35,286 nucleotides of DNA from an uncultured Thioalkalispiraceae bacterium (GTDB lineage: Bacteria; Pseudomonadota; Gammaproteobacteria; UBA6429; Thiohalophilaceae): NCBI GenBank assembly GCA_964472525.1, contig CAYYLL010000033.1, positions 1-35,286 on the forward strand, given 5' to 3'. Made by a program: the position numbers and the translations under genes. The notes under the pieces were generated by a model. The model was not told where the DNA came from and did no database searches. It saw only the letters and a list, made by a program, of their open reading frames with translations. The stretch's first letter is position 1, and the number at the start of each line of letters is the position of its first letter. Positions 1,677 to 30,726 of the stretch are shown one piece after another.

Positions 1677-1715
1677 AACTTACTACCTCCTAATAAAAAC
1701 AAGGCTTATCCTTGT

Positions 1716-7237: not shown

Positions 7238-7243
7238 ATTCGA

Positions 7244-9313: not shown

Positions 9314-9321
9314 TTATTCAC

Positions 9322-10227: not shown

Positions 10228-10375
10228 CGTGATTACCTGATAGAAAGTATTAAGATAAAACTATGCAGAAAGCATGCCGTAAATTTTTTATTTTAAATTC
10301 AATGGGATACATACTATTTACGGCAACTAATTGCCGTTTTATTGTTAACCACAGAGGATGTGGTTAACGAACAGA

Positions 10376-11494: not shown

Positions 11495-11529
11495 TTTATT
11501 TCTCCTGTTTACATCAAGCCCAATATTGT

Positions 11530-12213: not shown

Positions 12214-12245
12214 TCTTTACTCATTGCGTATTTATTGGGGACTGA

Positions 12246-13031
12246 CTATAAATTATTGTTTACGTACTGAAGCATTTGATCAGCCGTTGAAATGGCTTTT
12301 GAATTCATTTCATAAGCACGTTGTGTTTCAATCATGTTCACCAGTTCTTCAACAATATTGACATTTGAACTTTCAAGAGAGCCCTGAATAAGGCTACCAA
12401 AACTAAGGGAGTCGGGTGAGGCTACTTGTGCAGGTCCACTCGCCGCTGTTTCACCTAACATATTTCCACCTAAAGATTGCAAGCCACCGGGGTTAACAAA
12501 ATCAGCCAATTGAATAGTTCCCACCTGCGAAGGAACAGCATTACCCGGTTGAGTAACCGAAACCGTACCATCAACGCCAATAGTGACACTCAATGAATTA
12601 GCGGGAATACTAATATCGGGTTGCAAACGATAACCGGATGAATTAACAATTTGTCCGGCAGCACTTACCTGAAATTCACCATTACGGGTATAACCAATGT
12701 TTCCATTAGGTAAAAGGATCTGAAAAAAACCACGCCCTTCAATGGCCATATCAAAAGGATTGGCTGTTTGTAATAAATTCCCCTGTTGATATAATTTTTG
12801 TGTTGCAACCGTTCGCACCCCCGTACCGAGTGACAAACCTGAAGGTAATTCTGTTTCCTGACTACTTTGGCCACCCGGCTGGCGAACATTTTGATAGATT
12901 AAATCTTCAAAAACGGCACGTGCGCGTTTAAAACCAGTTGTATTCACATTTGCCAGATTATTGGAAATAATCGACAATCTATTTTGTTGCGCATCCAAAC
13001 CTGTTTTTGCTATCCATAATGGTTGAGCCAT
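12246..13031 (-). CDS. flgG: flagellar distal rod protein FlgG
   Basis: 261 aa, rod-family N/C termini ([35 protein letters not shown]). Confidence 0.9.
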
Positions 13032-13062
13032 TAGCTTTTACTCCAAATAATGTTTGTTAAAT

Positions 13063-13803
13063 CTAGGCAATATTAATTAACCGCATTGCATATTCATCAT
13101 TATCTTCTGCGGTTTTCATCATCTTCACTTGCATTTCAAACTGGCGAGCCAGTTCAATCATGTTAACCAACTCCGATGCAATATTAACGTTGCTACCTTC
13201 TAATACTCCTGACAACAATTCGACTTTTGCGTCAGCCGGTTCGACTTCATTATCACCAACATGAAAAAGTCCATCGTTACCTTTATGCACTGTTTTTAAA
13301 TCTGGATTAACTAATTTAATACGGTCCACAATATTCACAACTTCGGCACCATCTGTTTGGGTTATCACGCTGACTGTTCCATCGGTACCAATTTCAATGC
13401 GTTTCGCCGGTGGTAGAGTAATTGGACCCCCATCACCCATCACGGTTAATCCATTCGCTGTTTCAAGCAACCCTGTTGAAGTGACCTGTAACCCACCTGC
13501 ACGTGTATAGGCTTCATTACCATCTTTAGCTTGTACGGCAATAAAACCTTGTCCTTTAATAGCAACATCTAATGCACGGCCAGTAGTTTGAATCGAACCA
13601 GAATTAAAGTCTGTTCCTTCACGTTCGGTCATTGAAAACACACGGGTTGGAAAACCATCGCCGAAAAGAGGCATACTGCGTGCGGCAGCAAGATCCGCTT
13701 TAAAACCCGTGGTACTCACGTTAGCAATGTTATTTGCATTATGTGCTTGCGCTAACATATTTTGTTTCGCACCACTCATTGCAACATATAACATTCTATC
13801 CAT
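13063..13803 (-). CDS. flgF: flagellar proximal rod protein FlgF
   Basis: 246 aa rod family protein preceding flgG. Confidence 0.9.
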   Translation of the reverse strand: MDRMLYVAMSGAKQNMLAQAHNANNIANVSTTGFKADLAAARSMPLFGDGFPTRVFSMTEREGTDFNSGSIQTTGRALDVAIKGQGFIAVQAKDGNEAYTRAGGLQVTSTGLLETANGLTVMGDGGPITLPPAKRIEIGTDGTVSVITQTDGAEVVNIVDRIKLVNPDLKTVHKGNDGLFHVGDNEVEPADAKVELLSGVLEGSNVNIASELVNMIELARQFEMQVKMMKTAEDNDEYAMRLINIA

Positions 13804-13845
13804 TACGCACCTTTACTATTGTAAAAAATTTATTTAGCCTAATTA

Positions 13846-15102
13846 TTAACGTATGTTAATAATTGTTTGTGTAACCGTATCAGCCGTGGTGATCACCTGT
13901 GCATTTGCCTGAAAATTCCGTTGCGCTTTAATCATATTCACCAGTTGGCCGGTTAAATCAACATTCGATCCTTCCAATGCACCGGATTGCAGTTGTCCTA
14001 AACTACCTGAACCTGGCGTACCGACCAAAGGAACACCGGATGCAAAGCTCTCTGCCCAATTAGTATCACCCAGTTGTCTTAATCCTTGTGGATTAGAAAA
14101 ATCAGAAAGTGTTACCTGTCCGAGTGTTTTTGTTTGACCGTTACTGTATCGAGCACGAATAATACCGGTGTCATCAATATCAATGCCACTTAAACGCCCG
14201 GATGTATAGCCATTTTGAGTTAAAGCACTAACCGAAAACTTAGTACCAAATTGAGTGGTCGGCGTTGCTGCCTGTAAATTAAGGATGACATTAATTGGCA
14301 CCGCACCCGAACCCGTTTCAATACCGTTATAAACCAGTTCACCTGGAGGAGCAGCAGCACCATTAATAGATTCCAGTCCACCTGCACCATTAAATTTTAA
14401 TTTATCGCCAGTATAAGGAGGAGCCTGTCCGCCCTTTGCATCTTTCCCATCAACAAATAAATGTGTTGTCCAACTGTTAGGTTCGGCATCTTTAATGTAA
14501 TACATGGTAGACAAGTGCGGCGCACCTAATGAATCATAAACAGTCAACGAAGTTGAATGTGTGAAGGATGATGGTACTTCTGGATTAAACGGTAGTGTTG
14601 ATGGCGGACTTTGGGAGCTATCCAGATTAAGACCAACATCAATACGCGAGGTTGCTTTTGGAATAATATTAGAACGATCCAAACGCAATGGGCCTACCGC
14701 ACCCGAAATTTCACCTGAATCATCGGCATTATTAACAACCAGTTTATCGCTTGATGAGTTAACAACAAAGCCATCTCTATCGACTTTAAATGAACCCGCA
14801 CGAGTATAAGAACGGGAACCATTGTCATCTAAAACAAAAAATCCTCGACCATTAACTGCCAAATCCAGTTTGTTATCCGTAAATTCAATATTACCCTGAC
14901 CAAATTGTTGGCTCACACCGGATAAACGCACCCCCGCACCAATCGCATTGGAAGCACCGCCGTCCGTTGCAGCATAAACATCGGCAAACTCTGCACGCGA
15001 TGTTTTAAAACCTGTTGTACTTGCATTGGCAACGTTATTACCGATAACACGTAAATCTTGTGCGGCGGCATTAATACCACTGAGTGCTGCACGAAATGAC
15101 AT
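13846..15102 (-). CDS. flgE: flagellar hook protein FlgE
   Basis: 418 aa, hook-family termini, gene order flgD-flgE-flgF. Confidence 0.9.
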   Translation of the reverse strand: MSFRAALSGINAAAQDLRVIGNNVANASTTGFKTSRAEFADVYAATDGGASNAIGAGVRLSGVSQQFGQGNIEFTDNKLDLAVNGRGFFVLDDNGSRSYTRAGSFKVDRDGFVVNSSSDKLVVNNADDSGEISGAVGPLRLDRSNIIPKATSRIDVGLNLDSSQSPPSTLPFNPEVPSSFTHSTSLTVYDSLGAPHLSTMYYIKDAEPNSWTTHLFVDGKDAKGGQAPPYTGDKLKFNGAGGLESINGAAAPPGELVYNGIETGSGAVPINVILNLQAATPTTQFGTKFSVSALTQNGYTSGRLSGIDIDDTGIIRARYSNGQTKTLGQVTLSDFSNPQGLRQLGDTNWAESFASGVPLVGTPGSGSLGQLQSGALEGSNVDLTGQLVNMIKAQRNFQANAQVITTADTVTQTIINIR

Positions 15103-15165
15103 AATCTTTCTCCTTTAATAACGACTCAATATATAAAAGTTGCTAATTATAAATAAATTAACGTT

Positions 15166-15888
15166 CTACATTATTTTTAAAACTTCAGACATTTTAGCCT
15201 GACCGGCATTCGTTAAATTTAACGTCATCGGTTGTCCCGCATGACCGACGCTAACACTGTCAACCATATCAAACACAAGTGTATCAACACCCTGTTTTTC
15301 ATTATCAATACTGGCATAAGCTTCCATCGTATATTTCCCAGGCAAAGACATTACTAATTTCCCTTCACCTTTGGCTAGCTTATCGTCCTGTTTTGTTTTT
15401 CCGTCCCAGCTAAAATCAATTTTTCCTGCTGAGCGAGCCCCAAGGTTAATTTCTTTAACCACTTCACCTCGTGAATTTTTAATATTGACTATCAGTTCAT
15501 CGGTTGCCACTTTTAAATCCGCAGAGGCTTGAACTTCAAAAGGTTTACTCATATTTTGATTAATACGGAAATCATTACCCGGAACCAATACTTTTCGTCC
15601 AACCATACTGGTAGCTTGCAACGCCTGATTAGACTGCATGGTATCGGCTAAATTCTTAAAGGAATCCTTAATGTCTTTTAAACCACTCACTGCACTAAAT
15701 TGTGCCATCTGAGTCAGGAACTCACCGTTAGCCATGGGCTTAAAGGGATCCTGATGATTCATTTGTGCTAACATCAAGTCCATAAAATCTTCCTGACCAA
15801 GATGTTTTTTCTCGGCCGATTTTTTATTTTGGCTGGGAGCTAATCCAATATCATCAAAAGATGAAATTTTGTTATTAATCGGTTCCAT
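15166..15888 (-). CDS. flgD: flagellar hook cap/assembly protein FlgD
   Basis: 240 aa, FlgD-like, between flgC and flgE. Confidence 0.85.
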   Translation of the reverse strand: MEPINNKISSFDDIGLAPSQNKKSAEKKHLGQEDFMDLMLAQMNHQDPFKPMANGEFLTQMAQFSAVSGLKDIKDSFKNLADTMQSNQALQATSMVGRKVLVPGNDFRINQNMSKPFEVQASADLKVATDELIVNIKNSRGEVVKEINLGARSAGKIDFSWDGKTKQDDKLAKGEGKLVMSLPGKYTMEAYASIDNEKQGVDTLVFDMVDSVSVGHAGQPMTLNLTNAGQAKMSEVLKIM

Positions 15889-15943
15889 AATCTTGCCTGT
15901 ATTTCCTGATTTATCTCAATCAATCATTCGCTGTTAAATATTT

Positions 15944-16357
15944 CTATTGGCCAAGCTGCAAGGTACGCATTAGCATTTTCTTGGCTGTTGTCATCACTTC
16001 AACATTCGACTGATACGAACGTGAAGCTGAAATCATGTCTGCCATTTCTTCAACCATATTTACATTAGGTAAATGGATGTAGCCTTCTTTATCTGCCATC
16101 GGATTATCTGGGGCATACTCAGCACGTAATGGTTTATTACTTTCTACAATCCCTAATACCCGCACGCCGACTGCTTTTTTCTCATCCGAAAAGTCCTGCA
16201 CCATCGGAGCAAACACAGGATGTCTTGCTCGGTAGGTAGTACCTATACTGCTACTAAGACTGTTTGCATTCGCCATGTTGCTTGAAATTGTATTCAAACG
16301 TAACGTTTGCGCTTGCAAAGCAGAACCTGATATTCCAAAAACATTAAACAATGACAT
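15944..16357 (-). CDS. flgC: flagellar proximal rod protein FlgC
   Basis: 137 aa rod protein, conserved N-term MSLFNVFGISGSALQAQ. Confidence 0.9.
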   Translation of the reverse strand: MSLFNVFGISGSALQAQTLRLNTISSNMANANSLSSSIGTTYRARHPVFAPMVQDFSDEKKAVGVRVLGIVESNKPLRAEYAPDNPMADKEGYIHLPNVNMVEEMADMISASRSYQSNVEVMTTAKKMLMRTLQLGQ

Positions 16358-16406
16358 ACGTAATTTCCTATTAATAACTCTTTATTTTACCTGTTTGTTG
16401 CCCAAG

Positions 16407-16808
16407 CTAGTCACCACGAATAGCTGACATTAATGTACTGATTTTACCGTTAAGAAAACGCAGACTTGCCATATAACGAATAGCGTTATCATTAAAAGCC
16501 GACATTTCAACTTGTGACTCAACCGTATTGCCATCCAAAGAAGCCTGATAGGGCATACGGAATAATGTTTCAAAACGGTAATCTGATTTCTCAGGCTGAA
16601 TATGTTTTGAACTGGTTTCAACCAACGGTTTATTGCCAAAAGGATTTCGAATAGCTGCCTGTAAAGACGCATTAAAATCAAAATCTTTTGCTTTATAATT
16701 GGGTGTTTCGGCATTTGCCAGATTCGAAGACAGCAGCTCGGTACGGCGAGCTTGTAAATATAAAGCCTGCTCATGAAGATTAAAGGTACTACCGAATGAA
16801 AATGACAT
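16407..16808 (-). CDS. flgB: flagellar proximal rod protein FlgB
   Basis: 133 aa, first gene of flgBCDEFGHIJKL operon. Confidence 0.9.
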   Translation of the reverse strand: MSFSFGSTFNLHEQALYLQARRTELLSSNLANAETPNYKAKDFDFNASLQAAIRNPFGNKPLVETSSKHIQPEKSDYRFETLFRMPYQASLDGNTVESQVEMSAFNDNAIRYMASLRFLNGKISTLMSAIRGD

Positions 16809-16841
16809 TGTCTTATCCTGTTTAAAACTGTAAATGACTTG

Positions 16842-16859
16842 TTAGAGCTAGTTGCAACA
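16842..16859 (-). promoter_or_regulatory. candidate sigma54 (-24/-12) promoter for flgB operon: minus strand reads TTGGCAT-AGCTG-TTGCA
   Basis: GG and GC elements with correct 10-nt spacing; close match to TGGCAC-N5-TTGCA; lies 35-50 bp upstream of flgB ATG, consistent with FlrC/FleR-dependent flgB promoters. Confidence 0.5.
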
Positions 16860-17028
16860 GCTATGCCAAGTTTAATTTATAGTTTATTCAAGGACTTACA
16901 GATGGAGGTGGCGGCAAAAAGAAAGCTAAACGGCAATCCTTTACCTACCAACCAGAAGAATATATAAAATGAGTATCTCGTTAAAAGCTAGAATGGATTT
17001 AAAGCAGTACAAAAATAGATGACAACAA

Positions 17029-17862
17029 TCACTTCAAGCGGTATACAACACCGGCTTTAAACTTAACCATTTCATATAGATCACAATATCCCGTGGGAGA
17101 CTCAGAGCCACCCAGAAAAAGATAACCACCGGGATTAAGCAATTTTGCCATACGCACCAGAATGTCCGTTTTAATTTCGGCTGAAAAATAAATTAAAACG
17201 TTTCGACAAAATATAATGTCAAATTTACCCAGTATTGAATAATTTTTTAATAAATTTAATTCTGAAAATTTGCAACGGCCGCTGATTTCCGGACGAACTT
17301 TATAGCCACCGTCATTTTGATCAACAAAAAACCGTTTAAGCCTTTCTGTGGACAAACCGCGCGCCAAACTCAACTCGTCATATTTGGCTTCACGCGCATG
17401 TTTAAGAACCGTTGGTGAAATATCAGTTCCGACTATTTCCAAACGTCCGCTGAACTTTCCAGGATTTTTGGCCTGATACTCTGAGAAGGTCATGCTAATT
17501 GAATACGCTTCTTGGCCGGAGGAACTCGCCGAAGACCAGATACGCATTGACGGTTTTTTAGTTTTTGCTATTTCGTTAAAAAGTTCAGTATATAAAATTT
17601 CGAATGGATACTTGTCTCTAAACCAACTTGTTTCATTCGTTGTCATCGCATCGATAATTTTTTCTTTTAATTCTATATTATTTACCTGTTTTAATTTGTC
17701 TATCATCCCGCTAAGCGAAGCAAATTTAAACTCAATCAATAAACGTGAAAGACGGCTTGTCACCAAATAATGTTTGTTTTCACCTAGTACGATACCACAG
17801 GCATCCTCAAGAAATGTTCTAAAACTTTCATAGTCTTGTTTTGATAATGTATGTTGATTCAC
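17029..17862 (-). CDS. cheR: chemotaxis protein methyltransferase CheR
   Basis: SAM-dependent MTase motifs (VWSSASSSGQEAYS..., FCRNVLIYF), position between cheV and flgB as in Vibrio. Confidence 0.9.
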   Translation of the reverse strand: MNQHTLSKQDYESFRTFLEDACGIVLGENKHYLVTSRLSRLLIEFKFASLSGMIDKLKQVNNIELKEKIIDAMTTNETSWFRDKYPFEILYTELFNEIAKTKKPSMRIWSSASSSGQEAYSISMTFSEYQAKNPGKFSGRLEIVGTDISPTVLKHAREAKYDELSLARGLSTERLKRFFVDQNDGGYKVRPEISGRCKFSELNLLKNYSILGKFDIIFCRNVLIYFSAEIKTDILVRMAKLLNPGGYLFLGGSESPTGYCDLYEMVKFKAGVVYRLK

Positions 17863-17927
17863 TCAGCTATCTTCTTTATGTATTTTAAACTAGTTTAATA
17901 CACTCTAATAATATTTCTAATATTAAA

Positions 17928-18860
17928 TTATGAAATAATACCTTTCACCTGCAATATGTCTTTAACCTCACTGGCAAGTTCTTCTGCATTAAATTTTGGT
18001 ACAAATTTATCAGCACCTACTTTCGCAACCATTGATTGATTGAAAACACCGCTTAAAGATGTATGTAGCAGGATAGGTAATTTTTTTAATGCTTCACTTG
18101 CTCTGATTTCAGAAGTGAGTGTGTAACCATCCATTTCAGGCATTTCCACATCTGAAATAAGTACATCAATATGATCAGCTATATCGGAACCATCTTTAAT
18201 TAATGACTTTAAAATATTTAAACCATCAAGACCATTTTTGCCAATCGTACATTCCATACCCAGCTTATCTAAAGTACGTTTAATTTGATTACGTGCAACA
18301 GAAGAATCATCAACAACAAGTACACGAATAACCGTATCTTCTTTAGATTTAACCTCCATCGCATTATCCATACCACTAAGATCGACACCTAATAATTCTG
18401 CAAGAACTTTTTCTACATCAATAATTTCGACCAGTTCATCGTCCACTGATGTCACTGCGGTCATATAATTATCCTTACCTAATCCCTGTGGCGGTGTTTT
18501 AATATCCGACCAGTTCATGTTGACAATTCTATCGACACCGCTGGTTAAAAAACCCTGAACCTGACGATTATATTCTGTAATGATCAAATAATTAGTATCC
18601 GATTGTTGCAGTGGTCGTTTACCGATAGCTAACGCTAAGTCCAGCACCGAAATTGTTTTACCACGCATATTAGTCATGCCAACCACCACCGGTGATGAGT
18701 TGGTTATTTTTGTTAATGGTGGGCACATAATCACTTCTTGTACTTTAAATACATTAATACCAAACCGTTGCCGGCTACCTAAAGTAAAGAGTAATAATTC
18801 AAGCCTATTCTCACCCACTAAATTAGTACGTTGATCGACACCTTCAAGTATTCCGGCCAT
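17928..18860 (-). CDS. cheV: chemotaxis coupling protein CheV (CheW-like domain + receiver domain)
   Basis: N-terminal CheW-like domain and C-terminal REC domain (VLVVDDSSVARNQIKRTLDKLG ... DVEMPEMDG). Confidence 0.85.
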   Translation of the reverse strand: MAGILEGVDQRTNLVGENRLELLLFTLGSRQRFGINVFKVQEVIMCPPLTKITNSSPVVVGMTNMRGKTISVLDLALAIGKRPLQQSDTNYLIITEYNRQVQGFLTSGVDRIVNMNWSDIKTPPQGLGKDNYMTAVTSVDDELVEIIDVEKVLAELLGVDLSGMDNAMEVKSKEDTVIRVLVVDDSSVARNQIKRTLDKLGMECTIGKNGLDGLNILKSLIKDGSDIADHIDVLISDVEMPEMDGYTLTSEIRASEALKKLPILLHTSLSGVFNQSMVAKVGADKFVPKFNAEELASEVKDILQVKGIIS

Positions 18861-23419: not shown

Positions 23420-23894
23420 TACTTAAATGGTGCGCCTAGAGCGATTTAAACACCCGACCGCCTAGTGCGTAGTCGTGCGGTCTAGGTAAATCCTGTCAAC
23501 TTTGTCACAAGTATTTACTCTAATAGACTGAATTTAAAGATTTTTATCATGATTGGATAATTATTGATAATTTCACTCCCCCTCCCCCTACACAACATCA
23601 AATATGGTTTGTCATGACACATATTTGCCATACGGGATTTCTATTACTTCTAGGATTTTGTGGTGGGCTTGAACGCAGGAGGCTCTGAGGTCAAGTGTAG
23701 CATCGCTTCGCTAGTGAAGGTTTTTACACTTTTCTAATTCGAAACAAACTCTATTAGCAGTTTATAATCGTAAATTGTATGTTTTACTGTTCGAGCTGTT
23801 CTAACTCACCTCATGTTTCAGCGTGTGAATATTTTAGCCCTTCCATTTCATCTGGGTCGAGTGGCGTAGCACCTTTGGGACAATTAAATTCCAC
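23420..23894 (-). pseudogene. decayed Fic-family 'mobile mystery protein B' remnant, read in three frames broken by stops
   Basis: Directly after mystery-protein-A stop: frame 1 ...KGATPLDPDEMEGLKYSHAET*, then shifted GELEQLEQ*, then NIQFTIINC*. No intact Fic HPFx(D/E)GNGR motif found downstream. Confidence 0.4.
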
Positions 23895-24359
23895 TTACTT
23901 TTCTTCCCATAAATCTCGTGGCATATCTCTAATCAAACGTTCCGTTTCAAACTCGATTTGCCGTTGTAACTGTTCGCTTGATAACTGCTGCGCTTCTAAT
24001 TTCATTTGTACATCTGTCTTATTCACCAGATTTTCCGCTTTTTGCTTTGCTCTATCACGAATCATACTGTCAACCGATTTTCTGGGCACCAGAGCGTAAA
24101 CTAGCTCGCAATCAAGCGCTTTAGCAACACGCCGTAGCTGCTTGAGTGTAATACGATCTTCCATTTCCATACGTTCCATTTGAGAAGCCTGTGACTTACT
24201 CACACCCAAGCGCGTAGCCAATTGAGGGCTACTCATCCCCAATGCTGTACGCAAAGTACGGATCCAACCCTCTTTCGGTGATTTTATTCTTTTAATATCA
24301 ATAAGTTGGTCAATTTTAGACCGATACTGATCTCTAATAATCTGCTTAATCATAATCAA
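23895..24359 (-). CDS. HTH (XRE-family) 'mobile mystery protein A'-type regulator
   Basis: HTH RTLRTALGMSSPQLATRLGVSKSQASQMER, size and architecture of the A partner of A/B (HTH/Fic) mobile modules. Confidence 0.6.
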   Translation of the reverse strand: MIMIKQIIRDQYRSKIDQLIDIKRIKSPKEGWIRTLRTALGMSSPQLATRLGVSKSQASQMERMEMEDRITLKQLRRVAKALDCELVYALVPRKSVDSMIRDRAKQKAENLVNKTDVQMKLEAQQLSSEQLQRQIEFETERLIRDMPRDLWEEK

Positions 24360-24425
24360 TTACCACATATATATGGCCAAGTAATCTATACACTACCATA
24401 TATATATAGCCTAAAATAATATAAT

Positions 24426-24446
24426 AGGCAATATTTATATTGCCTT
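24426..24446. promoter_or_regulatory. perfect palindrome AGGCAATAT-T-ATATTGCCT (9-bp arms) in promoter region of the HTH gene; candidate operator
   Basis: Seen directly; plus second inverted repeat ATATATATGG...CCATATATAT at 24366-24408 and hairpin GCCCAAGT-N7-ACTTGGGC at 24476-24498. Confidence 0.35.
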
Positions 24447-24575
24447 TATTTAAGGCTATTGTTAGTTTCCCTATGCCCAAGTACAGTGCACTTGGGCTTA
24501 TCAGACATATAAATTCTACCAATTACACGTATTTCAGCTTACCCTCCTTTAAATAGTATTTTTAGCTAAAATAGT

Positions 24576-24746
24576 ATGAGCATGATTAAACAACAAAATT
24601 TTGCTAAACATGATGCAGAAAAACAGCCCTTACGTGAACGTGATATTGCGGCTATAAAAAATGGTGCATCTGCAAAAGAAATGCGTAATCGTAACTTTAT
24701 GTTCTCAGGTTTAGACATGTCAAAAGTGGTTGCTATCGCTCCCTAA
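24576..24746 (+). CDS. small hypothetical ORF (57 aa, MSMIKQQNFAKHDAEKQPL...)
   Basis: Below ORF-table cutoff; weak SD; no similarity recognised. Confidence 0.2.
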   Translation: MSMIKQQNFAKHDAEKQPLRERDIAAIKNGASAKEMRNRNFMFSGLDMSKVVAIAP

Positions 24747-24791
24747 TGGGCATCGCTTCTCACATCCCAAATAAATCTCCATTTTCAATTA

Positions 24792-25177
24792 AGATCAATA
24801 ATGCTTATTCATCTTCTTATTGGATTGATGAACACGTTTGATAGCTTCTGCCCATAATGGACTACACAAAGGTCTAAATTTAGCTCGACTACTATCACTC
24901 CATTTAATTTCCATTACCTCGATAATTAAGGCATCTGGATATTTTTTCCAGTCCTCGCGTTTGCTATTTTTTATTTCAACATCAATCTCATTCCATTCCA
25001 GATGCGCACTCTTCTCTATAGAATTTAGTTTTCGGCGAAAAGTACGATTAACCCTTCACTTTCTTTTGCGCTATGCTTTACGTGAGCTTTTATCATTTTC
25101 TCCATACACATTTTTACGCTGATGGGTGTAATCTCTAATCTTATTTTCTTGTGGTGTTATTACTCTTTCCTGATTCA
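24792..25177 (-). pseudogene. frameshifted gene relic; ATG start (25175-25177) then three consecutive reading frames each closed by a stop
   Basis: Frames read MNQERVITPQENKIRDYTHQRKNVYGENDKSSRKA* / ...HSAKESEGLIVLFAEN* / ...LEWNEIDVEIKNSKREDWKKYPDALIIEVMEIKWSDSSRAKFRPLCSPLWAEAIKRVHQSNKKMNKHY*. Confidence 0.25.
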
Positions 25178-25189
25178 TAATTTTTCTAC

Positions 25190-25229
25190 TCGAAAACTTA
25201 AAAATAAAGCGGGGTAAAACTACCCCGCT
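25190..25229 (-). terminator. rho-independent terminator (9-bp GC-rich stem AGCGGGGTA/TACCCCGCT, loop AAAC, then T-run on minus strand) downstream of the mini-RtcB gene
   Basis: Seen directly. Confidence 0.6.
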
Positions 25230-25252
25230 CTATACGCACAATTAAGTCACGA

Positions 25253-25621
25253 TTACCCTCTAACACAAACAACACCTTCAGTTTGTGCCACCATATCATC
25301 AACACTAAAATGACGTTTTGCTTTGCCACGCCTCATTTTACGTCCAGCACCGTGTGAGCAAGAACAAAATGATTCCTTGTTCCCTTTTCCTTGCACAATA
25401 AAAGACTTGGCACCCATACTTCCTGGAATAATACCAATCTCATCAACACCAGCACGAATCGCCCCTTTACCAAAATACACATCTGGCATTGCCGCCACAT
25501 GGCTATAAATAATCGGCAATTGAGATATATTCAACAATTGTTGATACGCTTCATGCTCAATATCATCGGTATAGATTTTTACTGGCACTTTACCTTTTGT
25601 TATCTGTTTTAAAATTAGCAT
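25253..25621 (-). CDS. mini-RtcB: RtcB RNA-ligase derivative (122 aa) with two in-frame internal deletions; probably non-catalytic relic
   Basis: N-term KGKVPVKIYTDD...LPIIYSHVAAMPDVYFGKG matches RtcB N-terminus; then jumps to GIIPGSMGAKSFIVQGKGNKESFCSCSHGAGRKMRRGKAKRHFSVDD (GMP-histidine motif) and ends VVCVRG like RtcB C-terminus; the metal-binding core is missing. Confidence 0.7.
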   Translation of the reverse strand: MLILKQITKGKVPVKIYTDDIEHEAYQQLLNISQLPIIYSHVAAMPDVYFGKGAIRAGVDEIGIIPGSMGAKSFIVQGKGNKESFCSCSHGAGRKMRRGKAKRHFSVDDMVAQTEGVVCVRG

Positions 25622-25677
25622 AACACTACCCTACCTACTCTCTATAATAGTCATGACGATTAGTATCATCATGTTTT

Positions 25678-25860
25678 TTAGTTGCGAGGCAACAATTCTT
25701 GAAATCTACGGCCAGAGCCACAAACACAAGGATCGTTACGTCCCAACTTCTCTGTTAACTCTTTATTATTGTGAACAATCCGTTTACCATGTTTCACATT
25801 CGTTTCTGAGGGGTAACCATGACGACGTTTACTCATAATCTCAAAAGCAGACTTCCTCAT
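25678..25860 (-). CDS. small SEC-C-like Cys-motif protein (60 aa; ...[21 protein letters not shown])
   Basis: C-terminal NDPCxCGSG motif resembling SEC-C metal-binding motif; a strong SD+GTG (25895-25897) opens a different frame 35 nt upstream, so possible frameshift. Confidence 0.4.
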
Positions 25861-25918
25861 AAATCTCGTAATCAGAAGTTTCTTTTCTAGTCTTGTGTTT
25901 CACAATACACCTCCTACA

Positions 25919-26872
25919 TTAAATTACTAAATTAAACCATTGAGGATCTGGTATTTTCTTATACAAACGGCAAAAGCCTTTATCTGACTGTAAAAATTCA
26001 GGTGCCTCAGATGTTTTCTTAAAACAAAAACGCTTTGGCAATTTTTCATAAAGCGATACAGGTGGTTTGGTATATGAAATACGCTTCACATTCGCACCTG
26101 TTTTCGAACTATGATAATGAATATTCGTAATACCTATTTCATTACGAATAAAATCTATCGTTGCTGCAAGCATCGCTTCAGACCAGATCGCTTTATACGG
26201 ACTCATAACATACTTACAGTAATGAATAACATCATCAATACTGCCATCTACACTCCACCATCTAACATGATTTGACTTCTTCTTTTTAGCTCGTTCAGCA
26301 TCACGTAATAAATCAGTACCTTCTCTTACCCAATCACTTTGTATTTCTTCAATTAATGCTTCATTGGTATCAAAGTCGATATCAATCCTTGACCAAGCCA
26401 AAGTTTCTCTAAAATATTCATTACTTTTTTGTTCATAAACCGGATGACAACTAGGATTAAGTAATTGTTCATATCCAGGCTTCACTAATTTTTTATAAAA
26501 AGCATCGTGTTTATTTGAGAAATTCAGTTGCAAAACAAGGTTAAAACCTTTTCTGGAAGTTTGCCCCCACGATGTATCTTTATAATCCCATTTTGATACG
26601 GTTAGAACAAAATCATGAATTTCACTTGGCCATATGTAATCGATAAAGTCCTTAGATACTTTCCCACCTCTGAATTTATCCAAATTCTCTTTGACAAAAG
26701 GTTTTTCCAACAAACCAGAAAATATTGATTTCTTAATATCAGAAATACGGTTTAGATCTTTATCTGTCATATATCCTAATAACATTAAAGCGTATCGGTC
26801 TTTAAAGTAACGAAATACCGTACGTTCTTTAGGCATGCAGTCTATAATTTCATTAACTAATTGTAGTTCCAC
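25919..26872 (-). CDS. hypothetical protein (317 aa), no recognisable domain
   Basis: ORF only. Confidence 0.5.
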   Translation of the reverse strand: MELQLVNEIIDCMPKERTVFRYFKDRYALMLLGYMTDKDLNRISDIKKSIFSGLLEKPFVKENLDKFRGGKVSKDFIDYIWPSEIHDFVLTVSKWDYKDTSWGQTSRKGFNLVLQLNFSNKHDAFYKKLVKPGYEQLLNPSCHPVYEQKSNEYFRETLAWSRIDIDFDTNEALIEEIQSDWVREGTDLLRDAERAKKKKSNHVRWWSVDGSIDDVIHYCKYVMSPYKAIWSEAMLAATIDFIRNEIGITNIHYHSSKTGANVKRISYTKPPVSLYEKLPKRFCFKKTSEAPEFLQSDKGFCRLYKKIPDPQWFNLVI

Positions 26873-26999
26873 TTCACACCTCCAATATTGAGTACCTTAA
26901 TAAACGATACCGGGTACCACACCCAACACCAAAATAATACTGATGTTGAATATGATACATAGCATCACCTCCCCGTACATATTCCAGCACTTTATGTAC

Positions 27000-28148
27000 T
27001 TATTCATGTAAATTGATTCTTACAGTATCTTTTACAATACCGTCTAAACCGCCGAACACAGTAAGCTTGTCTACTTTCTCTGTTATTTTTTCAAGAATTT
27101 CCAGTTCTTTCAAACGCATTAGCGTTGGGTTGTCGTCCATTAAACGCGCAGTGTTCAATAAAGAACGTGTTGCTGCTGTTTCTTCACGACGTTTGATAAC
27201 ATTTGCCTGTGCAATTTTTTCAGCCTCAACCACCTGGTTAAGGATGTCTTTCATATCACCAGGTAAAATGACATCTTTTACACCCACGCCACGTACCTTA
27301 ATACCAAACTCAGAAACCTTATCTTTAACTGTTTCAAAGATTACTTTGTCCAGTTCATCTTTATTCCCTAATAAAGTATCTAAAGTACGTGTACCAACGG
27401 CTTGACGTAATGCAAACTGTAATTCACGATAAACATAATCAGTAACATTCACTAACTTGTTACGCACAGCAATCGGATCAGTGACCTGATACTGAGCAGA
27501 CAAGTTCACACGCAGGCTAACTTTATCCTTAGTCAAAATTTCTTGACCTTGAACTTCCATCACTTGCATACGTAACTCAACTTGTTCCACTTTTACATTA
27601 CGGTTGAACTTCCAGTAAGCGTACAAACCAGGTTTTAATTTTTGCACAAGCTCACCATCAACAATCAGCAAACCAATATGGTTATCGGCCACTTCACTAA
27701 TTGTTAGGTAGTTAACAACTTCACGTGGCATTGCATCCATACGTGCATGTGCGATTAACCCAACAACGGCTTTTGGCACCATAAAGTCTTGTTCAATGTT
27801 TAGTGTTTCTACTTTTACATCAATCAAACCTTTCCAATACAACTGACGTGTAGCAGGTAGCAATACACCATTGAGTTTTCCATTCTTGTAAATCAGGCCC
27901 ACTTCATACTCACCCAACTCAATAAGCTGGAAGTATTTATCAACCAGTTCACGATTTTCTTTTACAAGAACATCGTTATAAGGATGATTAAACTCTGGTA
28001 CTGTCAAGTTATGAACCTCAACCGCTACACGACCAAATAGATCGAATCCACGGTAGATACCCGGTTCAAGAATCTTGACGACAGAACGATCTTTTAAATA
28101 AACACCACGTTCATGTTGTGCGATCACAATACGTTTTAATCCGAACAT
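27000..28148 (-). CDS. SPFH/band-7 (stomatin/HflC-like) domain protein without N-terminal transmembrane anchor
   Basis: C-terminal SPFH-like helical region (KDVILPGDMKDILNQVVEAEKIAQANVIKRREETAATRSLLNTARLM...LMRLKELEILEKI); start set at second ATG (MFGLKR...) which has GGAGAAGG SD. Confidence 0.55.
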   Translation of the reverse strand: MFGLKRIVIAQHERGVYLKDRSVVKILEPGIYRGFDLFGRVAVEVHNLTVPEFNHPYNDVLVKENRELVDKYFQLIELGEYEVGLIYKNGKLNGVLLPATRQLYWKGLIDVKVETLNIEQDFMVPKAVVGLIAHARMDAMPREVVNYLTISEVADNHIGLLIVDGELVQKLKPGLYAYWKFNRNVKVEQVELRMQVMEVQGQEILTKDKVSLRVNLSAQYQVTDPIAVRNKLVNVTDYVYRELQFALRQAVGTRTLDTLLGNKDELDKVIFETVKDKVSEFGIKVRGVGVKDVILPGDMKDILNQVVEAEKIAQANVIKRREETAATRSLLNTARLMDDNPTLMRLKELEILEKITEKVDKLTVFGGLDGIVKDTVRINLHE

Positions 28149-28503
28149 CACACCTTCTCCTTTCATTTAATTAAATATGAGAAATGCTCCACATCCAAAT
28201 TGCGGGACCATACTTGGTACCATCGTGTGTATTAAGCTGCTCCCAAGCTTGCTACGAATCTCACCCATAACACTAAAACGTTATTTATGAGATTCGCTCT
28301 CACTTGTTCGTAACTTAAACAGACCACAGTACATGTTGTATGTCGCAAGCAATCTTTATGCTGTGACATCGAATACACACTACAAAAATCGTTTGTGCAT
28401 TCAACTCACGGGAACATTTCCCGTTGCGATGAGTTACCCCATCAAATAAGCGGATTCGAACCGCAGGCTTTCGCCTTTTCCAAGAACAGCGTTAAAGGCT
28501 GTG

Positions 28504-28577
28504 TGCAAAAGAGAGGGAATTGAACCCTCGACAAATAGATTATCAGTCTATCGCTCTACCCAACTGAGCTATCTTCG
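28504..28577 (-). tRNA. tRNA-Ile(GAU)-like gene or pseudogene, no encoded CCA, bulged acceptor stem
   Basis: Minus strand: D-arm GCTC-AGTTGGGTA-GAGC, anticodon arm ATAGA-CTGATAA-TCTAT, T-arm GAGGG-TTCAATT-CCCTC are perfect; acceptor GCGAAGA/TCTTTTGC needs one bulge. Confidence 0.45.
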
Positions 28578-28726
28578 CTGGTGTTATTGAGTATTTAGTT
28601 GTTTTGTATACACCTTGCTATTTAAGCTTGAGTGCACAGGTCAGAGCTTAGAATCTGAACCGTTAAACAATTAAACGTATCTCAAAAACCTCTGAACGAC
28701 ATGTTTTAAACACATCATTACAATTC

Positions 28727-28759
28727 ATTTAAAAAGGTGGTGAGCGTTATGCCCACCAC
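28727..28759 (-). terminator. rho-independent terminator after HNH gene (GTGGTG-N11-CACCAC then CTTTTTA on minus strand)
   Basis: Seen directly. Confidence 0.5.
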
Positions 28760-28774
28760 AACATATGCAACATC

Positions 28775-29347
28775 TTATTGCGATATTGCATGACGGCGTT
28801 CTTTAGGGCATTGCACTTTCAAGAACGCCATTTGATCCGTCAATATGTGACGGTTATATAAAATTAACCACTCTGCATGGTTAGGTGCATAAGGCACCGC
28901 ATGTAAGTGCATTGTTGATTCACTCAACAATTTATCCGCTTTACGCTGATTACACACACGGCAAGCCGTTACCACATTTGTCCATACATCTTTCCCACCA
29001 CGTGATACAGGAATTACATGGTCACGTGTTAAATGGCGATCAACTAACATCGTTAAACAATACATACACGTATGTTGATCACGTCTAAACAATGCACGGT
29101 TAGTCAGCGATGAAACTTTTCCGCATGGTGCACGGCCAACTTCACCTTTTGCTGCCACGATAGAATGCACATCCATATAGGAACGTGTATTGCTCACACG
29201 GTTAATTCCACCGTAATAGCGCAATGGTTTATCACCTAATGTCCAGGCAACTTGATCTTTAGCATAAAGCAGTACCGCTTCTTGCCAATTAATCCATCCC
29301 ATTGGTTGCCCGCTGATATTGGTTCTTAAAATCAATGCGCTCATCAT
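28775..29347 (-). CDS. HNH endonuclease (zinc-finger HNH, homing-endonuclease-like)
   Basis: CxxC...DHVIPVSRGGKDVWTNVVTACRVCNQRK HNH/CxxC signature. Confidence 0.75.
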   Translation of the reverse strand: MMSALILRTNISGQPMGWINWQEAVLLYAKDQVAWTLGDKPLRYYGGINRVSNTRSYMDVHSIVAAKGEVGRAPCGKVSSLTNRALFRRDQHTCMYCLTMLVDRHLTRDHVIPVSRGGKDVWTNVVTACRVCNQRKADKLLSESTMHLHAVPYAPNHAEWLILYNRHILTDQMAFLKVQCPKERRHAISQ

Positions 29348-29401
29348 CTTATCTCCTACATTTCATCCATATTGCTTTAACAATTTGAAAGTATTTATAT
29401 T

Positions 29402-29465
29402 TGGTGCGCCCGGTCAGATGACCCAACAATAAGTTTAGTGCGTTTGCCAATTACGCCACGAGCGC
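29402..29465 (-). other. 64-nt tRNA-like relic (acceptor GCGCTCG/CGGGCGC + ACCA, D-arm GCGT-N9-ACGC, short hairpin GGTCA-TCT-TGACC; no proper anticodon arm)
   Basis: Seen directly; too short for a full cloverleaf. Confidence 0.3.
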
Positions 29466-29507
29466 TTTATTTACTATTTTCACTTACAACCAATTATCTT
29501 TTGAAAT

Positions 29508-29581
29508 TGGCTGAGGATCATGGATTTGAACCAGGACTACGAGTGTCAAAGACTCGCGTGCTACCATTACACTAATCCCCA
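29508..29581 (-). tRNA. tRNA-Gln (anticodon UUG), 74 nt, encoded GCCA end
   Basis: Acceptor TGGGGAT/ATCCTCA, D-arm GTGT-AATGGTA-GCAC, anticodon arm CGAGT-CTTTGAC-ACTCG, T-arm CCTGG-TTCAAAT-CCATG (one C.U mismatch), discriminator G. Confidence 0.65.
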
Positions 29582-29737
29582 ATATTTTATTGGTACGCCC
29601 CCGGTCGCAACGCACTTCCCTGTTCTCTCGCGACATTCGTATGTCCTATACATCAGATTCGAACTCAGAAAACACTGCGGCCATTATTTAGCCAGCACCA
29701 GCGACGTATGCCAGTTCCGTCATAGGCGCATAAAAAT

Positions 29738-29836
29738 TGGAGCACCTGTGAGGCCGTTTTTGTATGTTTAAATACATTGGCAACCTCAATCTTTCACCTT
29801 CGTAGGGTGATGCTCTTGCATTTAAGCTACAGGCAC
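29738..29836 (-). tRNA. tRNA-Arg(ACG)-like, 99 nt, with a 30-nt insertion (own hairpin) in the T-loop; probable pseudo- or aberrant tRNA
   Basis: Acceptor GTGCCTG/CAGGTGC + T + CCA, D-arm GCT-N10-AGC, anticodon arm TCACC-CTACGAA-GGTGA (perfect), T-stem TGAGG...CCTCA enclosing TTGCCAATGTATTTAAACATACAAAAACGG. Confidence 0.45.
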
Positions 29837-29845
29837 ATTATTAAT

Positions 29846-29920
29846 TGGTCGGTCGCAAGAGACTCTAACTCTTACCTTCTGGATTAAAAGTCCAGTGTGC
29901 TTTCATTACACCAGCGGCCG
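29846..29920 (-). tRNA. tRNA-Lys (anticodon UUU), 75 nt, atypical core (no G18G19, T-loop TTAGAGT lacks C56, one C.A acceptor mismatch)
   Basis: Acceptor CGGCCGC/GCGACCG, D-arm GTGT-AATGAAA-GCAC, anticodon arm CTGGA-CTTTTAA-TCCAG, T-arm AAGAG-TTAGAGT-CTCTT, A + CCA. Confidence 0.6.
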
Positions 29921-29984
29921 GAATTATTTTCTTAATACGTTTTAACTTAATGACAGCAATAAATTGTTTCTTTGATAGCTTCAT
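29865..29984 (-). CDS. 39-codon ORF (MKLSKKQFIAVIKLKRIKKIIPAAGVMKAHWTFNPEGKS) with strong SD GAGGAGGG; 3' half is co-linear with tRNA-Lys
   Basis: SD 5 nt upstream of ATG; ORF may be fortuitous or a relic. Confidence 0.2.
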   Translation of the reverse strand: MKLSKKQFIAVIKLKRIKKIIPAAGVMKAHWTFNPEGKS

Positions 29985-30015
29985 TTAATCCCTCCTCTGT
30001 TTAATAAACATTAAT

Positions 30016-30183
30016 TTAGGCATGCGGTCGAATTAAATGTAATAAATCATCTAGTTTTGGATTATTACGATTCTCGATCCATGCATTTGCAAGTAACCAA
30101 CGTAAATTAGCTTGCGTTGGAACTGTTCTGTTCTCTGGCACATTGACTTGTTGAATGAGTCGTCTGTACTTGTTAATTTCAAT
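30016..30183 (-). CDS. 55-aa ORF in TTG frame (LEINKYRRLIQQVNVPENRTVPTQANLRWLLANAWIENRNNPKLDDLLHLIRPHA) preceded by SD AAGAGGAG and a 6-codon ATG mini-ORF (MNNIGN*) in the -1 frame; probably frameshifted small gene
   Basis: Seen directly; strong SD belongs to the ATG at 30191-30193, whose frame stops after 6 codons. Confidence 0.2.
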   Translation of the reverse strand: MEINKYRRLIQQVNVPENRTVPTQANLRWLLANAWIENRNNPKLDDLLHLIRPHA

Positions 30184-30212
30184 ATTGTTCATAACGAACT
30201 CCTCTTTAGTTT

Positions 30213-30289
30213 GGGGCGATCAAACGGGTTCGAACCGATATCCACATAATTCACAGTTATGGACTTTACCTATTAAGCTATAATCGCCA
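30213..30289 (-). tRNA. tRNA-His (anticodon GUG) with G-1 and discriminator C73, encoded CCA
   Basis: G(-1)+acceptor GCGATTA/TGATCGC, D-arm GCTT-AATAGGTA-AAGT, anticodon arm CATAA-CTGTGAA-TTATG (perfect), T-arm ATCGG-TTCGAAC-CCGTT (1 mismatch), C-CCA; G-1:C73 is the His identity hallmark. Confidence 0.75.
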
Positions 30290-30407
30290 TTATTAAAAAA
30301 TTGGTCTGGATGTCTGGCTGCTCATGTGCATCCATGCACCCGCAGCATTTGTACATCCCTGTACATCATTTAAACTTGCGATATCTCCGTTCACTTTAAT
30401 ATAGTAC

Positions 30408-30443
30408 TGGCGGAGAACTCTAATCAGACTGAGCTATACCCAG
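30408..30443 (-). other. tRNA 5'-half fragment (acceptor + D-arm: CTGGGTATAGCTCAGTCTGATTAGAGTTC) followed by long hairpin; no matching 3' half
   Basis: GCTCAGT D-arm motif; no T-arm or acceptor complement downstream; adjacent palindromes TGTACA-GGGA-TGTACA and GTGCAT-GG-ATGCAC. Confidence 0.3.
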
Positions 30444-30466
30444 ATAAATCGAATACAATGGTGTTA

Positions 30467-30631
30467 TTAAATAGCACTCATTAATGCCATTAAAGAACAC
30501 CACTCTTTCTTCAATTTTTGCTTCTCAATTCTTCGTTTTGCTTTATCCGACTTTTCATGCACACCACCTTTAAACATCAATGGATGATTATGAAAAGGAT
30601 TTCGTGGTTTACTATCTTTTAATTTACTCAT
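30467..30631 (-). CDS. small basic protein (54 aa, MSKLKDSKPRNPFHNHPLMFKGGVHEKSDKAKRRIEKQKLKKEWCSLMALMSAI)
   Basis: Internal ATG of the 102-aa table ORF with SD GGAGAAAAG; longer version would overlap tRNA-Asn. Confidence 0.4.
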   Translation of the reverse strand: MSKLKDSKPRNPFHNHPLMFKGGVHEKSDKAKRRIEKQKLKKEWCSLMALMSAI

Positions 30632-30651
30632 CGCTTTTCTCCTATATAAAT

Positions 30652-30726
30652 TGGCTCCTAGAGTCAGACTCGAACTGACATACAACTCCTTAACAGGGAG
30701 CCCACCTACCAATAGTGCATCTAGGA
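30652..30726 (-). tRNA. tRNA-Asn (anticodon GUU), 75 nt, encoded CCA
   Basis: Acceptor TCCTAGA/TCTAGGA (perfect), D-arm CACT-ATTGGTA-GGTG, anticodon arm GCTCC-CTGTTAA-GGAGT, T-arm GTCAG-TTCGAGT-CTGAC (perfect), G + CCA. Confidence 0.8.

What the first reader, a model, noticed from the sequence alone, without database searches (positions are those of the whole stretch)
25253..25621. Mini-RtcB: RtcB reduced to 122 aa by two in-frame internal deletions while keeping the His-nucleophile motif
The ORF aligns to RtcB at three separate places. Its N-terminal ~50 aa match the RtcB N-terminus (KGVPVKxxT...MPDVHxGKG). A central stretch matches GIIPGSMGAKSFIV...SFCSCSHGAGR, which contains the guanylylated histidine. 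Its last six residues match VVCV(K/R)G. About 280 aa of metal-binding core (Cys/His ligands) are absent, yet the reading frame is preserved across both junctions. It has its own rho-independent terminator. Two in-frame deletions seem unlikely to be mere decay. Either the remnant is expressed, perhaps as a decoy or regulatory peptide, or it is a recent deletion product.
Basis: partly seen in the sequence, partly recalled or inferred. Interest (0 to 1): 0.6.

Follow-up and report, generated by a model that had tools for sequence, protein, structure and literature searches.

The report
Internally deleted remnant of rtcB
The 122-codon ORF is what is left of an ordinary RtcB RNA-repair ligase gene after two internal deletions at short repeated sequences; it has lost all its metal-binding residues and is most likely a recent, non-functional remnant.

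Summary
ORF 25253-25621 (minus strand, 122 aa) aligns with RtcB in three collinear pieces and lacks 276 internal residues.

Related metagenomic contigs (L018-L021) carry the same gene block: HNH, tRNA-Ile, SPFH/Band7, a 317-aa protein, a small SEC-C protein, then rtcB. At exactly this position they have an intact 398-aa RtcB.

Deletion 1 (711 nt) lies between two in-phase copies of a 10-nt direct repeat, GTAAAGGTGC, which encodes G-K-G-A and R-K-G-A. Deletion 2 (117 nt) joins two TGT Cys codons. Repeats of 8 nt or more inside rtcB are mostly in phase, so keeping the frame is expected and does not indicate selection.

All five Mn ligands are gone. The guanine-contact Lys is now Arg, and the His of the MPDVH motif is now Tyr.

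The double-deletion form exists as a single sequence only, with identical DNA in four assemblies. Other mini-RtcBs in the databases have different junctions, or are closer to full-length RtcBs than to each other, so they arose independently. AlphaFold2 gives no confident fold.

Verdict: an ordinary, recent gene remnant of low interest. By-products: a deletion hotspot in rtcB, and a conserved uncharacterised GNAT-like RtcB neighbour in tRNA-array islands.

The parts
25253..25621 (-). mini-rtcB ORF, 122 codons plus stop: the remnant of a ~398-codon rtcB
   Evidence: ORF list; Pfam RtcB 94 bits; alignments to E. coli and L018 RtcB
25460..25621 (-). Segment 1: codons 1-54, equal to RtcB residues 1-54. 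It contains the MPDVH motif, here mutated to MPDVY (H49Y).
   Evidence: 46/54 aa and 131/162 nt identical to L018 rtcB; H49Y falls at a column conserved in at least 90% of sequences
25461..25470 (-). Junction 1 microhomology: GTAAAGGGGC, within codons G51-K-G-A54. This is the single surviving copy of a direct repeat that flanks the 711-nt deletion.
   Evidence: L018 rtcB has GTAAAGGTGC at nt 152 and at nt 863, 711 nt apart and in phase. The two blastn blocks L018 518-4423 and 5125-5320 overlap on exactly window 25461-25470.
25265..25459 (-). Segment 2: codons 55-119, equal to RtcB residues 292-356. It contains GIIPGSMG and SCSHGAGR (His90 = Eco His337, the guanylylated nucleophile).
   Evidence: 78% aa identity to L018 289-356 and 66% to E. 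coli 299-366
25253..25267 (-). Junction 2 (TGT, Cys119) plus the tail V-R-G-stop, equal to RtcB residues 395-398 plus stop. 117 nt (39 codons) are deleted between TGT(356) and TGT(395). The penultimate Lys is now Arg.
   Evidence: Codon-level comparison: 16/21 nt match the 3' end of L018 rtcB, against 8/21 for a contiguous reading; K121R
25204..25233 (-). Intrinsic-terminator-like hairpin plus T-run downstream of the remnant
   Evidence: Consensus scan. L018 also has a hairpin at its rtcB stop codon, but the sequence is not alignable.
25678..25860 (-). Upstream gene: 60-aa SEC-C-motif protein (same block as in relatives)
   Evidence: Pfam SEC-C; homologous small ORF in L018/L020
25919..26872 (-). 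Upstream gene p317: an uncharacterised 317-aa protein that is a conserved RtcB neighbour, with a GNAT-like predicted fold
27000..28166 (-). SPFH/Band7 gene of the conserved block
   Evidence: Pfam Band_7; collinear with L018
28503..30726 (-). tRNA-Ile, an HNH endonuclease gene (28775-29347), then tRNA-Gln, Lys, His and Asn: the tRNA-array part of the island
   Evidence: ARAGORN; Rfam; Pfam HNH; same order in L018 and L014

Best explanation
The ORF is a deletion derivative of a normal rtcB gene of about 398 codons. That gene belongs to a conserved island: tRNA array, HNH, tRNA-Ile, SPFH/Band7, p317, SEC-C, rtcB.

Two replication-slippage or microhomology-mediated deletions removed codons 55-291 and codons 357-395.
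- The first (711 nt) lies between two in-phase copies of GTAAAGGNGC, which encode the conserved motifs GKGA and RKGA.
- The second (117 nt) lies between two TGT Cys codons in V-x-C contexts.

Because the repeat copies are in the same codon phase, the frame is preserved automatically.

The product keeps the His nucleophile motif. It lacks all five residues that bind the two Mn ions and also the Glu that reads guanine, so it cannot be guanylylated and cannot ligate RNA.

It is probably still transcribed and translated. It sits in the old gene's place, behind the same upstream genes, with a plausible ribosome-binding site and a terminator. It has no selected function.

Shown: homology, synteny with an intact gene, junction sequences, loss of catalytic residues, and absence of diverged copies.
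Inferred: the deletion mechanism, the recency, and the lack of function.
For: (1) Synteny. L018-L021 carry HNH, tRNA-Ile, Band7, p317 (66% identity), a small SEC-C ORF and a 398-aa RtcB. L018 518-4423 is collinear with window 29390-25461 at 71% nt identity. It resumes at L018 5125-5320 = window 25470-25275.

(2) Junction 1. It sits in a 10-nt in-phase direct repeat of the intact gene, tied for second longest in that gene. E. coli rtcB has 7 nt, GTAAAGG, at the same two sites.

(3) Frame. In-phase repeats dominate: 19/25 at 8 nt or more, and 43-47% at 4-5 nt.

(4) Catalytic residues. The Mn ligands are Eco Asp75, Cys78, His168, His185 and His281 (PMC9745838). All fall in Eco 55-298, which has no counterpart in the ORF. 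Cys-to-Ala abolishes all ligation steps (same paper). The equivalent of guanine-O6 contact Lys480 is Arg, and the His of MPDVH is Tyr.

(5) No maintained family. In 5.8 billion clustered proteins and 1.84 billion representatives, the next best hit after the identical cluster is 50-58% identical. Every other mini form is closer to a full-length RtcB than to any other mini, and their junctions differ.

(6) Independent decay. On L012 an rtcB 5' fragment 78% identical to this one, sharing H49Y, runs straight into a p317-like gene. In the window the neighbouring mobile-mystery-protein B gene is cut to 27 codons.

(7) Structure. AF2 gives mean pLDDT 58.8 and pTM 0.41, with the catalytic motif below 50. 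There is no structural match in the PDB, not even to RtcB.
Against: The ORF is intact. It deviates at only 2 of 27 near-invariant retained columns, which is within the range of functional RtcBs (22 of 84 have 2 or more). Recency or constraint could each explain this.

Expression signals look intact.

Internally deleted or C-terminal-only RtcBs with open frames recur in phage-like contigs, and one PHROG (32430, 139 aa) consists of short RtcBs. A function for some RtcB fragments is therefore not excluded.

No selection test was possible, because all copies of this allele are identical in DNA.
Confidence: 0.86

Rival explanations
1. The 122-aa protein is a selected, functional mini-protein. Possible roles are a decoy for an RtcB-targeting factor, a dominant-negative or regulatory partner of another RtcB, or a GMP/GTP-binding peptide.
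For: The frame is open and the GIIPGSMG and SCSHGAGR motifs are conserved. The ORF keeps its operon position, a likely ribosome-binding site and a terminator. The same architecture (N-terminal ~50 aa fused at GKGA to the C-terminal part) appears in P0003 and P0004 on phage-like contigs. Short RtcBs form PHROG 32430.
Against: There is no diverged orthologue with both junctions. The closest relative at this locus is full length. The shared junction is explained by an in-phase 10-nt repeat. The mini forms are polyphyletic. AF2 finds no confident fold. The RtcB fold is a single domain whose active site is built from the deleted part.
Confidence: 0.07
2. It belongs to an old, vertically inherited family of mini-RtcBs that share a single ancestral deletion.
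For: P0003, P0004 and P0173 share the GKGA junction, and P0198 and P0256 align collinearly with the query.
Against: The window protein is 74% identical to the full-length L018 RtcB (81%, 99/122, over the non-overlapping residues) but at most 58% identical to any mini. Every mini has a closer full-length relative, even in a sparse sample clustered at 50%. Only the window form has the second deletion. Junctions differ in P0002, P0005, P0007, P0013, P0034, P0121, P0130 and P0136.
Confidence: 0.03
3. It is an artefact of assembly, or the footprint of an excised intein, intron or other mobile insert.
For: The best NCBIfam hit is an intein-containing RtcB model (NF052663, 127.7 bits). Many close RtcBs carry inteins and are 570-770 aa long.
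Against: Identical sequence was found in 3 other independent assemblies. The syntenic intact gene has no intein (398 aa). The intein site (GVDIG/C, seen in P0124) is inside the deleted region, not at a junction. The score is far below the model cut-off of 1050. No central RtcB piece lies elsewhere in the window.
Confidence: 0.02

Closest known systems
RtcB RNA 3'-phosphate/5'-OH ligase (Pfam PF01139; E. coli RtcB, P. horikoshii RtcB)
   Same: It is clearly homologous in three collinear segments. It retains GIIPGSMG and SxSHGAGR with the His nucleophile, and the C-terminal V-x-G. It occupies the position of an intact rtcB in syntenic relatives.
   Different: It lacks 276 of 398 residues. The missing part includes all Mn1/Mn2 ligands (Eco Asp75, Cys78, His168, His185, His281) and the guanine-reading Glu. 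It also carries H49Y and Lys-to-Arg at the guanine-O6 contact. It cannot work as a ligase.
Short phage 'RtcB' ORFs (PHROG 32430; Pseudomonas phage PPpW-3 gp53, 137 aa; metagenomic P0003, P0004, P0013)
   Same: These are truncated or internally deleted RtcB derivatives with an open frame that keep the C-terminal His motif. P0003 and P0004 use the same GKGA junction.
   Different: They lie in phage contexts, often just downstream of an HNH gene. They keep the complete C-terminal ~40 residues that the window form lost. They arose independently, each being closer to a full-length RtcB. None has been characterised.
Bacterial pseudogenes and gene remnants formed by deletion between short direct repeats (replication slippage / microhomology-mediated deletion)
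   Same: There is a deletion flanked by a 10-nt direct repeat with one copy retained. An intact orthologue lies at the syntenic site. Other decayed genes lie nearby.
   Different: The frame happens to be preserved through both events, so gene callers annotate it as a protein.
tRNA-array islands with an upstream HNH gene and associated rtcB (L-arrays, Santamaria-Gomez et al. 2021, PMC8421152)
   Same: tRNA genes, an HNH endonuclease gene and rtcB are clustered, as that paper describes for cyanobacterial L-arrays.
   Different: Here the host is gammaproteobacterial, judging by the relatives. The array is short (5 tRNAs, widely spaced). There are extra conserved partners (SPFH/Band7, p317, SEC-C), and rtcB is degraded.

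Membership tests
RtcB family (PF01139), as homologue | Significant sequence match to the family profile | tested here: met
   94.3 bits against a gathering score of 27, in 2 stretches; PHROG 1075, 120 bits
RtcB family, as active RNA ligase | Binuclear Mn site: Asp75, Cys78, His168, His185, His281 (E. coli numbering) | tested here: not met
   The ligands are listed in PMC9745838. E. coli residues 55-298 have no counterpart in the ORF, and no central fragment lies elsewhere in the window.
RtcB family, as active RNA ligase | Histidine nucleophile in the HGAGR motif (Eco His337) | tested here: met
   His90 in SCSHGAGR aligns with Eco His337; this column is invariant
RtcB family, as active RNA ligase | Guanine recognition by the penultimate Lys (Pho Lys480) and by Glu206 | tested here: not met
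   Lys is replaced by Arg121 at a column conserved in at least 90% of sequences. The Glu lies in the deleted GNHFIE region.
RtcB family, as active RNA ligase | Full-length match above the NCBIfam equivalog cut-off | tested here: not met
   PRK09588 scores 53.6 bits against a cut-off of 407; TIGR03073 scores 40.4 against 271.8
Intein-containing RtcB (NF052663) | Intein inserted in the RtcB extein; score above cut-off | tested here: not met
   127.7 bits against a cut-off of 1050. There is no intein sequence, and the syntenic intact gene is intein-free.
Gene remnant / pseudogene | Intact orthologue at the syntenic position in relatives | tested here: met
   L018-L021 have a 398-aa RtcB after HNH, tRNA-Ile, Band7, p317 and SEC-C
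Gene remnant / pseudogene | The truncated form is not conserved across diverged lineages | tested here: met
   Only one sequence cluster exists. The DNA is identical in 3 other assemblies, and the next hits are at most 58% identical.
Gene remnant / pseudogene | Relaxed selection (dN/dS near 1) since the disruption | tested here: inconclusive
   All copies are identical in DNA. There are 2 of 27 deviations at conserved columns, which is not an outlier.
Short phage RtcB (PHROG 32430) | Match across the 139-position profile, in a phage genome | tested here: inconclusive
   91.5 bits, but only to profile positions 22-95. The context is a bacterial chromosome next to a flagellar cluster.

The most novel reading that the evidence does not exclude
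RtcB fragments that keep the His-GMP motif may form a recurrent, selected class of small proteins in phages and tRNA-array islands, made repeatedly by deletion at the gene's internal repeat. They might act as decoys or inhibitors of factors that target RtcB, or as modulators of a resident RtcB. On this reading the window's 122-aa ORF would be a chromosomal example.
Probability: 0.06. Interest if true: 0.55.

Novelty: new member of a known kind. Interest (0 to 1): 0.15.

Why it matters
In itself it matters little: it is a decayed gene that annotation pipelines will label 'RtcB family protein'.

It is useful as a caution. An open reading frame that survives two internal deletions is not evidence of selection when the junctions lie in in-phase repeats that encode repeated motifs.

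Two by-products could be worth a specialist's time.
- rtcB carries an internal motif repeat (GKG[AS]...AIIPAAVG versus RKGA...GIIPGSMG). This acts as a recurrent in-frame deletion hotspot and explains many 'mini-RtcB' database entries.
- RtcB in gammaproteobacterial tRNA-array islands is consistently paired with an uncharacterised, confidently modelled GNAT-like protein, an SPFH protein and an HNH endonuclease.

Tried and rejected
- Megablast of window 1-25000 against phage genomes found no match. The window is a bacterial chromosome with a flagellar cluster, not a phage.
- PADLOC found no defence system around the ORF.
- I attempted a selection test using other contigs that carry the same protein. 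L001 and L003 are 100% identical. L002 differs only downstream, in the HTH gene. The test gave no information.
- The closest C-segment relative, P0006 (81% aa), is only 68% identical in DNA and not syntenic, so it does not help refine junction 2.
- The intein-footprint idea was rejected.
- The idea that L012 shares the same 5' breakpoint was rejected. Its similarity probably extends a few codons further (GA-LGN versus GATVGS), and its 3' partner is a p317-like gene, so it is a separate event.
- AF2 on the mini protein and a Foldseek search against the PDB gave low confidence and no match. This is only weak negative evidence.
- Literature searches found no description of truncated or mini RtcB proteins.

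Full report
**What is there**

An ATG-to-TAA ORF of 122 codons lies on the minus strand at 25253-25621. It scores 94 bits against Pfam RtcB in two stretches.

BLASTP against E. coli K-12 RtcB, fetched from NC_000913.3, aligns residues 7-54 with Eco 6-54. It aligns residues 52-119 with Eco 299-366 at 66% identity. A terminator-like hairpin with a T-run follows about 20 nt after the stop (25233-25204).

The exact protein occurs on 5 contigs. Three independent assemblies besides the window were read, and all show the same neighbours.

**Context**

The window is a bacterial chromosome, not a phage. Positions 246-18860 hold a flagellar cluster: fliD, two flagellins, flgK, flgJ, flgI, flgE and cheV. 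There is no nucleotide match to phage genomes.

The ORF is the last gene of a same-strand block. In order, the block is:
- tRNA-Asn, His, Lys and Gln
- an HNH endonuclease gene
- tRNA-Ile
- an SPFH/Band7 gene
- a 317-aa protein with no family assignment (p317)
- a 60-aa SEC-C-motif protein
- the mini-rtcB

**The decisive comparison**

I searched homologues of p317 and looked up their contigs. This gave four contigs, L018-L021, one of them from MAG GCA_030635835.1. They carry HNH, tRNA-Ile, Band7, p317 (66% identical), a small SEC-C ORF and then a full-length 398-aa RtcB.

At the DNA level, L018 518-4423 is collinear with window 29390-25461 at 71% identity. The alignment resumes at L018 5125-5320 = window 25470-25275. 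The only structural difference within the block is inside rtcB.

Against this RtcB the mini protein maps as follows:
- residues 1-54 = 1-54 (46/54 identical)
- residues 52-119 = 289-356 (78% identical)
- the last 7 codons including the stop match the full gene's last 7 codons at 16/21 nt, against 8/21 for a contiguous reading

Two deletions account for this: 237 codons (55-291) and 39 codons (357-395). No central RtcB fragment lies elsewhere in the window.

**How the deletions arose (inferred)**

In L018 rtcB the sequence GTAAAGGTGC occurs at nt 152 (codons G-K-G-A, 51-54) and again at nt 863 (R-K-G-A, 288-291). The copies are 711 nt apart and in the same phase. The window keeps one copy, at 25461-25470, which is exactly the overlap of the two BLAST blocks. 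This is the signature of slippage or microhomology-mediated deletion.

E. coli rtcB has 7 nt, GTAAAGG, at the same two sites. The second deletion joins TGT(Cys356) to TGT(Cys395), both in V-x-C contexts.

The repeated motifs are part of an internal similarity in RtcB: GKG[AS]...G-AIIPAAVG near the N-terminus against RKGA...G-IIPGSMG near residue 290 (visible). In a third RtcB (L016) the AIIP/GIIP pair is a 10-nt in-phase repeat, ATTATTCCCG. That pair is the junction used by the independent mini form P0005.

In L018 rtcB, 19 of 25 exact direct repeats of 8 nt or more are in phase, as are 43-47% of 4-5-nt repeats. Two repeat-mediated deletions therefore both stay in frame with a probability of roughly a third, not one ninth. 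ORF-based ascertainment also favours the in-frame cases.

**What the product can and cannot do**

According to PMC9745838, Mn1 is bound by Cys98, His234 and His329, and Mn2 by Asp95, Cys98 and His203. In E. coli these are Asp75, Cys78, His168, His185 and His281. The Cys-to-Ala mutant loses every step of the pathway. Glu206 and Lys480 read the guanine.

All five metal ligands and the Glu lie in the deleted part. The Lys480 equivalent is Arg121. The His of the near-invariant MPDVH motif is Tyr49. Only the His nucleophile survives (His90 = Eco His337; its role is described in PMC3458531). The protein cannot be an RNA ligase.

AlphaFold2 with a 44-sequence alignment gives mean pLDDT 58.8 and pTM 0.41, with the catalytic motif (82-96) below 50. 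The model matches nothing in the PDB, not even RtcB. This is weak evidence, but it fits a remnant that does not fold on its own.

**Is the short form maintained by selection?**

No diverged copy exists. In the 5.8-billion-cluster search, the best hit after the identical cluster is 50-58% identical. The exhaustive HMMER search of 1.84 billion representatives gives the same result.

The other contigs carrying the ORF are 100% identical in DNA across it. L002 diverges only from the next gene onward. No dN/dS test is possible.

The ORF deviates at 2 of 27 retained columns that are at least 90% conserved. This is not unusual among functional RtcBs and fits a recent event.

A related contig (L012) shows a different decay of the same gene lineage. 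There an rtcB 5' fragment, 78% identical and also carrying H49Y, runs straight into a p317-like gene. In the window itself, the partner of the neighbouring 'mobile mystery protein A' gene is cut to 27 codons.

**Other mini-RtcBs**

The searches turned up many internally deleted or C-terminal-only RtcBs.
- P0003 (164 aa) and P0004 (186 aa) use the same GKGA junction but keep the full C-terminus.
- P0002, P0005, P0007, P0013, P0034, P0121, P0130 and P0136 use other junctions.
- P0173 has lost the nucleophile His.

P0003, P0004 and P0013 lie in phage-like contigs. Pseudomonas phage PPpW-3 gp53 is a 137-aa C-terminal RtcB just downstream of an HNH gene. PHROG 32430 is a family of such short forms.

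Each mini form is more similar to some full-length RtcB than to any other mini form. They are therefore independent products of a deletion-prone gene, not one family. Whether some phage versions have a function remains open. I found no literature on them.

**Comparison with known systems, and verdict**

The ORF is a homologue of RtcB but fails the defining catalytic features. It is best filed as a gene remnant.

The island resembles the tRNA-array / HNH / rtcB neighbourhoods described for cyanobacterial L-arrays (PMC8421152). Here it has additional conserved partners.

The 'recent deletion product' reading is supported (confidence about 0.86). The 'decoy/regulatory peptide' reading is unsupported (about 0.07). 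Interest is low.

Noticed in passing
window 25253-30726; L014, L018-L021: A conserved island: tRNA array, HNH endonuclease, tRNA-Ile, SPFH/Band7, p317, a small SEC-C protein and RtcB. It recurs in several gammaproteobacterial lineages in two gene orders (p317 before or after rtcB). It resembles the L-array/HNH/rtcB neighbourhoods of cyanobacteria (PMC8421152).
   Followed up: partly
[not shown]
   Followed up: partly
L004 2198-2692, L005 5363-5923, L007 6001-6417, L010 2968-3381: Open-frame internally deleted or C-terminal-only RtcB genes occur in phage-like contigs and in Pseudomonas phage PPpW-3. In L007 and PPpW-3 they lie directly downstream of an HNH endonuclease gene. Their function is unknown.
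   Followed up: partly
L018 rtcB nt 152/863; L016 rtcB nt 208/913; E. coli rtcB codons 51-54/298-301: RtcB has an internal motif repeat: GKG[AS]..G-AIIPAAVG against RKGA..G-IIPGSMG. At the DNA level it gives 7-10-nt in-phase direct repeats about 705-711 nt apart, which makes it a recurrent in-frame deletion hotspot.
   Followed up: partly
L012 1325-1580: On a 1.6-kb contig, Band7 is followed by an rtcB 5' fragment (about 58 codons, 78% identical to the window's, also H49Y). The fragment abuts the start of a p317-like gene. This is an independent loss of rtcB in a lineage with the Band7-rtcB-p317 order. The shared H49Y suggests the substitution predates both deletions.
   Followed up: partly
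window 23811-24359 (-): Mobile mystery protein A (TIGR02612, 158.6 bits) is intact. Its usual Fic-type partner B is reduced to a 27-codon ORF (MEFNCPKGATPLDPDEMEGLKYSHAET). About 700 bp without ORFs follow it.
   Followed up: partly
window 23814-24359 versus L002: L002 is 100% identical to the window from Band7 down to 24360, but 14-20% divergent across the mobile-mystery-A gene and beyond. This marks a sharp recombination boundary just downstream of the remnant.
   Followed up: partly
window 28503-30726; L018 1321-1396; L014 2154-2229: The tRNA genes are unusually widely spaced (265-365 bp). A sub-threshold tRNA-like match lies at 29763-29836 (22 bits). The tRNA-Ile after the HNH gene has anticodon GAT in the window but AAT in L018, L019 and L014.
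   Followed up: no
window 24360-25252: An 893-bp stretch downstream of the remnant has no ORF of 100 aa or more on either strand. Synteny with L018, which has a sensor kinase at this position, ends exactly at the rtcB stop codon.
   Followed up: no
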